From assembly GCF_006345805.1 (NCBI RefSeq), contig NC_043003.1, positions 75,578,001 through 75,642,000 on the forward strand: 64,000 nucleotides of DNA. The letters run 5' to 3'. Position numbers: made by a program. Of the stretch, positions 8,205 through 10,049 are shown in pieces. Every line of letters starts with the position of its first letter. Positions within the stretch are counted from its first letter, which is position 1. Origin of the DNA: Octopus sinensis. Lineage: Eukaryota.

Positions 8205-10007
8205 ATATATATATATTTCAACAATTGAGGGTAAAATTAATTAATTAATCAATTTCACCAAGTATTCAGTATACAAAGGGACCATTTAAGGCGAATTCAA
8301 ATTATTACATTATATAAAAGGGCTTAGTAAAATAAATTACTTTGCCGCATACTGAACTCATTAGAAATAGCAGCTAAAAAACTTTTTTTAAACTATTTCT
8401 AATACTTAAAGAAAACCTCTCTCATATAGTGTTTGCTCAATTCAACTCACGCAAATATAGGGGTAGAGACATTAAAAAATCAAGTGCAAAGGTTATTTGA
8501 GAACGTACGTTTCAAGATTAGTCAACTCGACATTTCTATCATCAGCTCAGAACTCCCTGGTTTGGATTTGAAAACACTGAAAGTGGGAGCATACCCTTTC
8601 GGCTTCCTCTCGCTTCTGAAGATCTGCTCCCAACTAACAGTGCCAACAAACCCAAAAATGCAAGCGAAGAATTTCTGCTCTCCCCTTTCCACCAGCGTGG
8701 GTTAAAATCAGTAAACACTATGCTTTTTTCGGTAAAGTCCGCGGCATTATATAGAGAGAGATGAATTATAATTTCAACAATTGAGGGTAAAATTAATTAA
8801 TTAATCAATTTCACCAAGTATTCAGTATGCAAAGGGACCATTTAAGGCGAATTCAAATTATTACATTATATAAAAGGGCTTAGTAAAATAAATTACTTTG
8901 CCGCATACTGAACTCATTAGAAATAGCAGCTAAAAAACTTTTTTAAAACTATTTCTAATACTTAAAGAAAACCTCTCTCATATAGTGTTTGCTCAATTCA
9001 ACTCACGCAAATATGGGGGTAGAGACATTAAAAAATCAAGTGCAAAGGTTATTTGAGAACGTACGTTTCAAGGTTAGTCAACACGACATTTCTATCAACA
9101 GCTCAGAACTCCCTGGTTTGGATTTGAAAACACTGAAAGTGGGAGCATACCCTTTCGGCTTCCTCTCGCTTCTGAAGATCTGCTCCCAACTAACAGTGCC
9201 AACAAACCCAAAAATGCAAGCGAAGAATTTCTGCTCTCCCCTTTCCACCAGCGTGGGTTAAAATCAGTAAACACTATGCTTTTTTCGGTAAAGTCCGCGG
9301 CATTATATAGAGAGAGATGAATTATAATTTCAACAATTGAGGGTAAAATTAATTAATTAATCAATTTCACCAAGTATTCAGTATGCAAAGGGACCATTTA
9401 AGGCGTATTCAAATTATTACATTATATAAAAGGGCTTAGTAAAATAAATTACTTTGCCGCATACTGAACTCATTAGAAATAGCAGCTAAAAAACTTTTTT
9501 AAAACTATTTCTAATACTTAAAGAAAACCTCTCTCAATTGTTGAAATTATAATTCATCTCTCTCTATATAATGCCGCGGACTTTACCGAAAAAAGCATAG
9601 TGTTTACTGATTTTAACCCACGCTGGTGGAAAGGGGAGAGCAGAAATTCTTCGCTTGCATTTTTGGGTTTGTTGGCACTGTTAGTTGGGAGCAGATCTTC
9701 AGAAGCGAGAGGAAGCCGAAAGGGTATGCTCCCACTTTCAGTGTTTTCAAATCCAAACCAGGGAGTTCTGAGCTGATGATAGAAATGTCGTGTTGACTAA
9801 TCTTGAAACGTACGTTCTCAAATAACCTTTGCACTTGATTTTTTAATGTCTCTACCCCCATATTTGCGTGAGTTGAATTGAGCAAACACTATATGAGAGA
9901 GGTTTTCTTTAAGTATTAGAAATAGTTTTAAAAAAGTTTTTTAGCTGCTATTTCTAATGAGTTCAGTATGCGGCAAAGTAATTTATTTTACTAAGCCCTT
10001 TTATATA

Positions 10008-10049
<42 letters not shown>

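What the first reader, a model, noticed from the sequence alone, without database searches (positions are those of the whole stretch)
8215..10012. Second, unrelated retrozyme-like array (556-bp monomer) lying between two Penelope-like elements
Seen: about 2.4 tandem monomers plus an inverted arm, with HHRs at 8498, 9054 and 9769. Stem III is the palindrome ACGUACGU. I see no similarity to the 480-bp family outside the ribozyme core. Known: minimal HHRs with palindromic stem III can act as dimers in tandem transcripts. Inference: an independent non-autonomous ribozyme retroelement family whose tandem arrangement may be required for cleavage.
Basis: partly seen in the sequence, partly recalled or inferred. 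Interest (0 to 1): 0.88.

Follow-up and report, generated by a model that had tools for sequence, protein, structure and literature searches.

The report
Penelope-type hammerhead repeat array in octopus
This is a short, non-coding repeat carrying a hammerhead-ribozyme motif that was inserted into a TA microsatellite of an octopus genome in the distinctive way Penelope-like retrotransposons insert, so it is a new example of a known kind of parasitic element, not a new kind.

Summary
The repeat is real. There are 2.37 direct copies of a 556-bp unit (8217-9536) joined head-to-head to a 480-nt inverted copy (9533-10012). Both outer ends abut (TA)n.

Each unit carries a type-I hammerhead motif with all core nucleotides and the palindromic stem III ACGUACGU. 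The middle copy has a core mutation (CUGUUGA). Rfam detects no hammerhead even at E<=10. My own descriptor hits only this family and the 480-bp family (0.025 hits expected per shuffled window).

The layout matches a Penelope-like element (PLE) insertion: a partial tandem, an inverted 5'-truncated arm, a (TA)n target, and a "tail" at one end only. The same layout occurs in the 480-bp array and in the autonomous PLE to the left.

The two ORF-less families are unrelated overall (z<2) but share the ribozyme build, including a U·U mismatch at the base of helix II. They also share short motifs at both alternative 3' ends.

Best reading: one PLE-mediated insertion of a non-autonomous, retrozyme-like element. 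The window appears to be Octopus.

Self-cleavage, dimer dependence, circular RNA and genome-wide copy structure remain untested, because no eukaryotic DNA collection was available.

Verdict: new member of a known kind, moderate interest.

The parts
8131..8216 (.). (TA)n microsatellite flanking the left 3' end of the array; the presumed target
   Evidence: TRF reports period 2, 44.5 copies. The sequence was read.
8217..9536 (-). Long arm: 2.37 units of 556 bp (M1 8217-8772, M2 8773-9328, partial M3 9329-9536). The ribozyme sense strand is '-'. The 3' end is at 8217 (site a) and the 5' end at 9536.
8217..8305 (-). 89-nt 'tail': the part of the unit between the two alternative 3' ends (site b to site a). 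It is present at the outer end of this arm only.
   Evidence: The tail concept comes from Craig 2021 and Frangieh 2024.
8498..8549 (-). Hammerhead motif of M1 with an intact core (CUGAUGA at 8545-8539). The predicted cleavage site is between 8502 and 8501.
9054..9105 (-). Hammerhead motif of M2 with a mutated core (CUGUUGA; A6 to U at 9098) and a U-to-C change in helix II at 9073.
9533..9536 (.). Head-to-head junction of the two arms. The four bases CTCA are shared by both arms (microhomology).
9533..10012 (+). Inverted, 5'-truncated arm (0.86 unit). The ribozyme sense strand is '+'. The 3' end is at 10012 (site b) and there is no tail.
9769..9820 (+). Hammerhead motif of the inverted arm with an intact core (CUGAUGA at 9773-9779). 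The predicted cleavage site is after 9816.
10013..10046 (.). (TA)n flanking the right 3' end of the array
   Evidence: TRF reports 10002-10046, period 2.
4865..8130 (-). Comparator: the autonomous but degenerate PLE on the left. The main arm runs 7956 to 4865 and holds the RT/GIY-YIG ORF pieces at 5569-7960. There is a 119-bp inverted arm at 7957-8075 and a 55-nt tail at 8076-8130. Architecture is the same as in the array.
10047..12065 (-). Comparator: probable 5'-truncated, degenerate PLE of another clade on the right. It has a GIY-YIG-like ORF at 10867-11304 and its 3' end abuts (TA)n at 10047. The 5' limit is uncertain.
32108..34265 (.). Comparator: the 480-bp family array with the same head-to-head layout in (TA)n. 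The left arm 32108-32733 (sense '-') ends at site a with a 127-nt tail. The right arm 32736-34265 (sense '+') ends at site b.

Best explanation
The locus is most likely one insertion event of a short (556-nt unit), non-coding, hammerhead-bearing retroelement. It was made by the machinery of a Penelope-like element (PLE), which places it with the animal 'non-LTR retrozymes'.

Shown directly in the sequence:
- Two arms of the same unit meet head-to-head at a 4-nt microhomology.
- Their 3' ends point outward into (TA)n.
- The two 3' ends lie at two different positions of the unit, 89 nt apart. One arm therefore carries a 'tail' and the other does not.
- The unit has no RT or EN remnant.

Inferred mechanism:
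1. A PLE RT/GIY-YIG protein nicks both strands of a (TA)n target.
2. It starts reverse transcription on each strand at one of two internal start sites of a multimeric or circular RNA of the element.
3. It copies more than one unit on one strand, which yields the tandem.
4. The two incomplete cDNAs are joined 5' to 5'.

The hammerhead has a 2-bp helix III capped by GUAC. It would cut multimeric transcripts to unit length, mainly by pairing two copies through the ACGUACGU palindrome. Unit RNAs could then be circularised and reused as template.

This particular genomic copy is probably a poor source of unit RNA, because one of its two same-strand ribozymes has a core mutation.
For: Architecture:
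- The period is 556, with a 2.37-unit arm and a 0.86-unit inverted arm sharing CTCA at the junction. The arms are not a simple fold-back, because they meet at different unit positions.
- (TA)n lies on both sides.
- The same layout is seen twice more in the window. The 480-bp array has arms 32108-32733 and 32736-34265 in (TA)n. The ORF-bearing PLE at 4865-8130 has a 119-bp perfect inverted arm plus a 55-nt extension at one end only.

Published PLE hallmarks that match:
- Partial tandems, an adjacent inverted 5'-truncated copy, a tail at one end, and (TA)n preference linked to a CX2-5CxxC motif (Craig 2021 passages).
- The left PLE has CX4CxxC, read from its ORF.
- A purified PLE protein cuts and extends both strands and starts at two internal sites that define the tail (Frangieh 2024, section read).

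Shared 3'-end motifs:
- The 25 nt before the 556 family's site a finds its best match in the 480-bp unit (both strands scanned) at that family's own site a. Score 12, against 10 for the best antisense match.
- The 37 nt around site b matches best at its site b. Score 14, against 8 (sequences).

Non-coding:
- No PLE-profile hit falls in 8217-10012.
- None of the 3 monomer ORFs tested has a Pfam family.
- A 91-aa ORF found no homologue.
- There is no tRNA-like head.

Ribozyme:
- All core positions and three helices are present.
- The descriptor hits only the two families, with 0.025 expected per shuffle.
- Every helix differs between the families while pairing is kept: UGAG/CUCA against UCUG/CAGA in helix I, and AGA/UCU against CAU/AUG in helix II (strings).
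- A U·U at the base of helix II with a 2-bp helix III plus tetraloop has a precedent in axolotl HHR_Amex2, which cleaves better as a dimer (Cervera 2020 passage).
- With core nucleotides kept unpaired, two copies fold as a double hammerhead (-26.0 kcal/mol, against an unconstrained -30.0). One copy forms helices I and II but not III.
- The unit RNA is strongly structured: z = -6.4 linear and -5.4 circular over 100 shuffles each, with about 65% paired.
- GC is 0.353.
Against: - Rfam finds no hammerhead at gathering score or at E<=10.
- The hand-drawn monomer hammerhead is only -2.1 kcal/mol against an MFE of -9.5. The unconstrained dimer optimum replaces helix II by a hairpin that uses core nucleotides.
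- Position 10.1/11.1 is U·U instead of the usual G-C.
- Three of the 7 variable positions among the copies fall in the 52-nt ribozyme, one of them at core position A6. There is therefore no sign of constraint on the ribozyme at this locus.
- My descriptor was written after I had seen the motif.
- The shared end motifs are short and AT-rich, and rest on two families only.
- Neither flanking PLE shows end motifs matching the array above background, so no autonomous partner is identified.
- No other copy of the unit exists in the window and no eukaryotic DNA collection could be searched. Copy number, mobility and absence of an ORF-bearing form are therefore all unverified.
- No expression, cleavage or circular RNA data were available.
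Confidence: 0.65

Rival explanations
1. The 556-bp unit is simply the terminal region (pLTR) of an autonomous PLE family. This locus would be a heavily 5'-truncated or internally deleted copy, not a separate non-autonomous family.
For: - In Xenopus, 24 of 57 retrozyme families match PLE termini (Li et al. 2026 preprint, Results read).
- PLE copies are usually 5'-truncated and partly tandem.
- I could not search the genome for ORF-bearing relatives.
Against: - The unit recurs head-to-tail at 556 bp, with two complete unit-to-unit junctions and no ORF between them. The template itself therefore had a 556-nt period.
- A second ORF-less family (480 bp) built on the same plan sits in the same window.
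- The unit shows no similarity to the 3' regions of either neighbouring PLE (z between -0.9 and 0.4).
Confidence: 0.12
2. The element is mobilised by PLE machinery, but the hammerhead-like motif is inactive or vestigial. Under this reading the ribozyme plays no part in its life cycle.
For: - Rfam is negative.
- Helices II and III are weak and there is a U·U at the base of helix II.
- Three of 7 substitutions fall in the motif.
- Hammerhead mutants of a PLE did not affect insertion in vitro, and no reads ended at the cleavage site (Frangieh 2024).
- Naiad PLEs thrive without hammerheads (Craig 2021 passage).
Against: - The full core and three-helix design are kept in two families that share no other sequence apart from the end motifs.
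- That is hard to explain without selection on the source copies.
- The same design (U·U, 2-bp helix III) cleaves in axolotl retrozymes.
Confidence: 0.15
3. The array is a local satellite. A single inserted PLE-derived fragment was amplified in place by unequal crossing-over, and the inverted arm arose by a separate rearrangement.
For: - Li et al. 2026 discuss local amplification of PLE termini into tandem repeats (Discussion passage).
- The copies are nearly identical.
Against: - It does not explain why both outer ends abut (TA)n.
- It does not explain why the two ends fall at the same two motif sites as in the 480-bp family.
- It does not explain why three separate elements in the window show the same head-to-head layout with a one-sided tail.
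Confidence: 0.06
4. The inverted arm is an assembly artefact (a fold-back or chimeric read).
For: The long inverted repeat is nearly perfect.
Against: - The two arms do not mirror each other at the junction: unit positions 349 and 544 meet there.
- The inverted arm carries a combination of variants found in neither neighbouring copy.
- The same kind of structure is a documented PLE feature.
Confidence: 0.02

Closest known systems
Animal 'non-LTR retrozymes' (Cervera and de la Pena 2020, NAR, PMC7229834; passages read)
   Same: - Type-I hammerhead in every unit of a short, AT-rich (GC 0.35), non-coding tandem repeat.
- Strongly self-paired unit RNA.
- Co-occurrence with PLEs.
- PLEs were proposed there as the mobilising partner.
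   Different: - The unit (556 bp) is longer than the 150-450 bp given there, although it lies inside the 51-972 bp range of the 2026 preprint.
- The array is short and joined to an inverted arm.
- The ribozyme has PLE-like proportions (long helix II, 4-bp helix I) instead of the canonical loop-loop design.
- Circular RNA and cleavage were not tested here.
Minimal hammerheads in PLE pseudo-LTRs (Cervera and De la Pena 2014, MBE, PMC4209133; first part of the text read)
   Same: - Short helix I, long helix II with an unpaired nucleotide at its base, and a very short palindromic helix III suggesting action as a dimer.
- Motifs found on opposite strands a few hundred bp apart.
   Different: - Here no ORF lies between the ribozymes.
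- Helix III keeps 2 bp plus a tetraloop and is not absent.
Axolotl HHR_Amex2 / Rtz_353 retrozyme (Cervera and de la Pena 2020, passage)
   Same: - A 2-bp helix III with tetraloop and a U·U mismatch at the base of helix II.
- Weak cleavage as a monomer and much better as a dimer, as reported there.
   Different: - Different phylum and no sequence relation tested.
- The axolotl repeats are about 350 bp in very large arrays.
PLE integration as reconstituted for Poseidon of Anolis (Frangieh et al. 2024, Mob DNA, PMC11167929; main text read) and PLE insertion anatomy (Craig et al. 2021, MBE, PMC8557442; passages read)
   Same: - Both target strands are used, the target is AT-rich or (TA)n, and there are two alternative internal RT start sites giving an optional tail at one end.
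- Partial tandem plus an inverted 5'-truncated copy.
   Different: - The published tails are 30-40 bp. Here the distance between the two ends is 89 nt (556 family), 127 nt (480 family) and 55 nt (left PLE).
- The element here encodes no protein.

Membership tests
Hammerhead ribozyme, type I | Conserved core: CUGANGA, GAA, the A15.1-U16.1 pair, and H at position 17 | tested here: met
   All are present in M1 and in the inverted arm. M2 has U at position 6.
Hammerhead ribozyme, type I | Three helices around the core with helix I open | tested here: met
   - Helix I has 4 bp, extendable by 3+2.
- Helix II has 3+3 bp with an internal loop and a U·U at its base.
- Helix III has 2 bp plus GUAC.
- Pairing is kept with different bases in the 480-bp family.
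Hammerhead ribozyme, type I | Match to the curated Rfam covariance models | tested here: not met
   There was no hammerhead hit at gathering score or at E<=10.
Hammerhead ribozyme, type I | Self-cleavage at the predicted site | not testable with these tools
   This needs in vitro transcription of monomer and dimer.
Animal non-LTR retrozyme | Short tandem repeat with a type-I hammerhead in each unit | tested here: inconclusive
   There are 2.37 direct units. Both direct-strand ribozyme positions are present, but one has a mutated core. By the 2026 preprint's definition of an 'active' retrozyme (HHR in all repeats, passage), this copy would not count as active.
Animal non-LTR retrozyme | No coding capacity, no LTR/PBS/PPT, low GC | tested here: met
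   - No PLE-profile or Pfam hit.
- No homologue of a 91-aa ORF.
- GC is 0.353.
- PBS and PPT were not searched for specifically.
Animal non-LTR retrozyme | Expressed as unit-length linear and circular RNA | not testable with these tools
   No transcriptome data were available. Only the predicted fold was computed (z = -5.4 as a circle).
Animal non-LTR retrozyme | Dispersed multiple copies in the genome (mobility) | not testable with these tools
   There is no other copy in the window, and no eukaryotic genome collection was on hand.
PLE-type insertion (structure left by PLE RT/EN) | Partial tandem plus an adjacent inverted 5'-truncated copy | tested here: met
PLE-type insertion (structure left by PLE RT/EN) | Optional 3' extension (tail) at one end only | tested here: met
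   - The ends fall at unit positions 556 and 467.
- The same two motif sites are used in the 480-bp family.
- The length of 89 nt exceeds the published 30-40 bp.
PLE-type insertion (structure left by PLE RT/EN) | AT-rich or (TA)n target | tested here: met
   (TA)n lies on both sides. Target-site duplication cannot be read in a microsatellite.
Autonomous Penelope-like element | ORF with RT and GIY-YIG endonuclease | tested here: not met
   No such ORF or remnant lies in 8217-10012.

The most novel reading that the evidence does not exclude
The two ORF-less hammerhead families in this window carry, at exactly their two alternative 3' ends, short conserved motifs that are the start signals read by one octopus PLE reverse transcriptase. 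The arrays would then be direct structural evidence that animal retrozymes are integrated by dual-strand, internally initiated PLE reverse transcription of multimeric or circular RNA. That step has so far been inferred only from co-occurrence and pLTR similarity. A by-product would be that every such insertion creates a near-perfect hairpin of several hundred bp. If transcribed, this would feed double-stranded RNA pathways, small RNAs or A-to-I editing, in a cephalopod.
Probability: 0.4. Interest if true: 0.6.

Novelty: new member of a known kind. Interest (0 to 1): 0.45.

Why it matters
Who mobilises animal retrozymes, and how, is still argued from indirect evidence: co-occurrence with PLEs and similarity to PLE termini.

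This locus, with the second array and the neighbouring autonomous PLE, shows ORF-less hammerhead repeats bearing the full anatomical signature of PLE integration. They use two conserved 3'-end sites.

That gives concrete, testable RNA signals for an in vitro PLE assay, and a defined junction to look for in circular-RNA data.

I found no description of hammerhead repeats in octopus or other cephalopods:
- A search for 'hammerhead ribozyme' with 'octopus' found 5 papers, 4 of them listed, and none on this.
- The word 'octopus' occurs 0 times in Cervera 2020.
- 'Hammerhead' and 'retrozyme' each occur 0 times in the 2026 O. vulgaris repeat annotation paper.

Supplements were not visible. Otherwise the finding is an ordinary member of a known class.

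Tried and rejected
- **Rfam.** The whole window at gathering score and two regions at E<=10 gave no hammerhead, only chance miRNA, CRISPR-DR and snoRNA rows on AT-rich hairpins.
- **TRF.** It cannot see a 556-bp period because its limit is 500.
- **Other copies of the unit.** blastn of the unit against the window at word size 7 found no copy outside the array.
- **Sensitive local alignment.** The unit against the 480-bp unit and against the 3' regions of both PLEs gave z between -0.9 and 1.6, so there is no overall relation.
- **Matching PLE end sequences to the arrays.** Nothing rose above background. One exact 11-mer is shared between the left PLE and the 480-bp unit, which I do not interpret.
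- **Right-hand element.**
  - A search with its GIY-YIG-like ORF gave 0 hits among 81 candidates.
  - Its upstream 122-aa piece has 539 relatives at E<=1e-3.
  - Only 6 of the 150 listed match my PLE profile, all through the endonuclease part.
  - Pfam names nothing in 10 of its relatives or in the octopus PLE protein at E<=1e-3.
- **Candidate hammerhead in the right PLE (CUGACGA at 10190, '-').** The constrained fold does not give a canonical helix II, so I do not count it.
- **Hammerhead-like stretch in the left PLE 3' region (about 5000-5045, '-').** By eye I could not draw a helix I or III, so it is not counted.
- **Monomer ORF (91 aa) as a handle on other copies or transcripts.** There was 1 candidate and none scored.
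- **tRNA-like head or B box.** None in the array.
- **Not attempted.**
  - Metagenome and viral collections, which were closed.
  - Supplementary files of the papers, which were closed and may hold octopus or mollusc ribozyme lists.
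Full report
**What is there**

Reading 7600-10600 and the repeat search show a 556-bp unit repeated directly.
- M1 is 8217-8772, M2 is 8773-9328, and a partial third copy is 9329-9536 (208 nt).
- From 9533 to 10012 there is a 480-nt reverse-complement copy.
- blastn of one unit against the whole window finds these pieces and nothing else.
- M1 and M2 are 98.9% identical.
- A column-by-column comparison finds 7 variable positions among all copies.
- TRF did not list the array because its longest period is 500. It did list the other, 480-bp array at 32736-34265.
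- Both outer ends of the 556-bp array abut TA microsatellites at 8131-8216 and 10002-10046.

**The ribozyme motif**

The strand that carries CUGAUGA is '-' in the direct copies and '+' in the inverted arm.

On that strand the motif has the following parts:
- a 4-bp helix I (UGAG/CUCA, extendable);
- the core CUGAUGA;
- a 25-nt helix II made of U·U, AGA/UCU, a 3x3 internal loop, GUC/GAC and a 5-nt loop;
- GAA;
- the palindrome ACGUACGU, which is A-U and C-G around GUAC;
- then U as position 17.

Predicted cleavage is after 9816 (+) and between 8502 and 8501 (-).

The M2 copy has U for A at core position 6 and a U-to-C change in helix II.

Rfam does not recognise any of these motifs, nor those of the 480-bp family, at gathering score or at E<=10.

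A generic type-I descriptor that I wrote after seeing the motif finds 6 sites in the window. All lie in the two arrays: 2 in the 556 array and 4 in the 480 array. The mean over dinucleotide shuffles is 0.025 per shuffle, and 5 of 200 shuffles had any hit.

The two families have the same design with different letters in every helix, including the U·U at the base of helix II.

Cervera and de la Pena 2020 (passage) describe that same combination in axolotl HHR_Amex2: a 2-bp helix III with tetraloop and a U·U at the base of helix II. It cleaves weakly as a monomer and much better as a dimer.

**Folding**

- As a single copy, the hammerhead drawing is worth only -2.1 kcal/mol, against an MFE of -9.5 for a competing fold.
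- With the core nucleotides kept unpaired, one copy forms helices I and II but not III (-7.1).
- Under the same constraint, two copies fold as the double hammerhead with intermolecular helices I and III (-26.0). The unconstrained dimer optimum is -30.0 and uses a non-ribozyme hairpin in place of helix II.
- The 480-bp family's motif folds as a complete monomeric hammerhead under the same constraint (-10.5, against an MFE of -11.7).
- The dimer idea is therefore reasonable for the 556 family. It is not new (Cervera and De la Pena 2014, text read; review passage citing Forster 1988 and Lunse 2017).
- In a double hammerhead, one copy's core cuts the other copy's site. This is established knowledge of the double-hammerhead model, not something I tested.
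- The A6U change in M2 should thus impair cutting at M1's site. This genomic copy is then a poor source of unit-length RNA. That is inference.
- The unit RNA as a whole is much more structured than shuffles: z = -6.4 linear and -5.4 circular, with about 65% paired.

**Orientation and ends**

Taking the ribozyme strand as sense, the two arms are head-to-head.
- Their 5' ends meet at 9533-9536, where four bases (CTCA) belong to both arms.
- Their 3' ends point outward into (TA)n.
- The arms meet at different unit positions (349 and 544 in sense numbering). This is not a fold-back.
- The inverted arm has a variant combination found in neither neighbour.

The two 3' ends are at different unit positions.
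- The long arm ends after CAATTGTTGAA. I call this site a, at unit position 556.
- The inverted arm ends after GCCCTTTTATATAATGTA. I call this site b, at position 467.
- One arm therefore carries an 89-nt extension that the other lacks.

**The same anatomy elsewhere in the window**

The 480-bp array has the same layout.
- A '-' sense arm at 32108-32733 and a '+' sense arm at 32736-34265 meet head-to-head, with (TA)n on both sides.
- One arm ends after TAATTGTTAAACTTAT and the other after GCCCTCTATACAATATAGATATA, 127 nt apart.

The end sequences of the two families match each other.
- Scanning the 480-bp unit on both strands with the 25 nt before the 556 family's site a gives the best score at the 480 family's own site a (12, against 10 for the best antisense match).
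- The 37 nt around site b score best at its site b (14, against 8).

Outside the ribozyme and these two blocks the families are unrelated (z = 1.6 and -0.3).

The element to the left is an ORF-bearing PLE.
- Four '-' strand ORF pieces at 5569-7960 match a profile built from 56 relatives (E from 2e-24 to 3e-152).
- They are 96-98% identical to an 803-aa protein that NCBI names as from Octopus vulgaris.
- The ORF has one frameshift and two in-frame stops.
- It carries a CX4CxxC motif before the GIY-YIG part, read.
- Its main arm runs 7956 to 4865. A perfect 119-bp inverted copy of its 3' end lies at 7957-8075 and is followed by 55 further bases before (TA)n. The main arm's 3' end abuts TA-rich sequence directly.
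- This is again a head-to-head structure with a one-sided extension.

**Comparison with the literature**

- Craig et al. 2021 (passages) list as PLE hallmarks: partial tandems forming pseudo-LTRs, an adjacent inverted 5'-truncated copy, a 30-40-bp tail often at only one end, and a bias for microsatellites. They name (TA)n and link the bias tentatively to the CX2-5CxxC motif.
- Frangieh et al. 2024 (main text) show that a purified PLE protein cuts and extends both strands of an AT-rich target. It starts reverse transcription at two adjacent internal sites whose spacing corresponds to the tail. Hammerhead mutants do not impair insertion in vitro.
- Cervera and de la Pena 2020 (passages) define animal non-LTR retrozymes and propose PLEs as their mobilisers.
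- Li, Clavereau and Pollet 2026 (preprint; abstract, Results part 1 and passages) show similarity between Xenopus retrozymes and PLE termini.
- In what I read of those last two papers, 'inverted' occurs 0 times in the 2020 text. In the 2026 preprint it occurs once, in a reference title, and 'tail' occurs 0 times. I did not see their supplements.

**Interpretation**

The array is best read as one PLE-type insertion of a non-autonomous, hammerhead-bearing element.
- The tandem is a product of copying more than one unit of a multimeric or circular RNA.
- The inverted arm is the product of priming on the second target strand.
- Sites a and b are the two start sites.

It lies between two PLEs most simply because all three are insertions into one TA-rich microsatellite tract. 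TA-type repeats also flank the other side of the left PLE near 4845-4864 and the far side of the right element at 12677-12973.

Nothing ties the array to either neighbour in sequence.

The right neighbour is only probably a PLE.
- Its 145-aa ORF matches the endonuclease part of the PLE profile (E = 1.3e-5).
- It matches Pfam GIY-YIG weakly (E = 0.012, below cut-off).
- Relatives of its upstream piece are numerous (539 at E<=1e-3).
- Only 6 of the 150 listed match the PLE profile, and always through the endonuclease region.

**What stays open**

- No eukaryotic nucleotide collection was available. I could not ask whether the unit occurs elsewhere, whether any copy is joined to an RT ORF, or which PLE carries matching ends.
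- No expression or cleavage data exist here.
- Three of the 7 substitutions among copies hit the 52-nt ribozyme, where roughly 0.7 would be expected by my own arithmetic. This locus therefore shows no constraint on the ribozyme.
- The argument for function rests on conservation of the design between two otherwise unrelated families.

**Verdict**

This is a new, cephalopod member of the PLE-dependent retrozyme-like elements, and its dimer-prone ribozyme is of a described type.

The added value is anatomical. Two ORF-less families and one autonomous PLE in a single window show the same dual-strand, two-start-site insertion signature.

Noticed in passing
window 4865-8130: The left PLE has a perfect 119-bp inverted copy of its own 3' end (4865-4983 against 7957-8075) and a 55-nt extension (8076-8130) at one end only. 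The O. vulgaris protein P0001 diverges from this copy at almost the same 5' point, which suggests that 7956 is close to the true 5' end of the element.
   Followed up: partly
window 5074-5087 (-) and 10185-10198 (-): Both flanking PLEs carry the same 14-nt box, CAAAATGGCTGACG, in their 3' regions. It holds a hammerhead-core-like CUGACG right after an ATG, and in both a stop follows within five codons. Neither could be folded into a convincing hammerhead.
   Followed up: partly
window 32108-34265: The 480-bp array is also head-to-head in (TA)n. Its hammerhead can fold as a monomer (helix III of 4 bp), unlike that of the 556 family.
   Followed up: partly
window 8862-10012: If the locus is transcribed through, the two arms would form a near-perfect 480-bp RNA hairpin with a 191-nt loop. 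The 480-bp array would form a 626-bp one. Either could be a substrate for double-stranded-RNA pathways.
   Followed up: no
window 8359-8404, 8915-8960, 9471-9516, 9914-9959: Each unit holds a 46-nt AT-rich hairpin with a 10-bp perfect stem, about 60 nt upstream of site b. Rfam matched it by chance to a CRISPR repeat model (E about 4-6).
   Followed up: no
window 12364-12749 and 40332-40715: A 386-bp stretch is repeated at 94% identity. It is an unidentified dispersed repeat next to the right-hand element.
   Followed up: no
window 13460-13560 and 19386-19486: Two copies of another repeat family contain CTGATGA. They have no hammerhead helices by my descriptor.
   Followed up: no
window 15882-16445 (-): A 187-aa open frame looks like a LINE-type reverse transcriptase fragment by eye. 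It was not scanned against any library.
   Followed up: no
window 26359-27263 and 36763-36885: Two further tandem repeats: a TG-rich 443-bp unit present twice at 99% identity, and a 42-bp unit present 2.9 times.
   Followed up: no
window 8050-8066 and 32586-32598 region: An exact 11-mer (ATTCCGAAATA) is shared between the left PLE, just before its 3' end site, and the 480-bp unit, at its site a junction. This is possibly chance.
   Followed up: no
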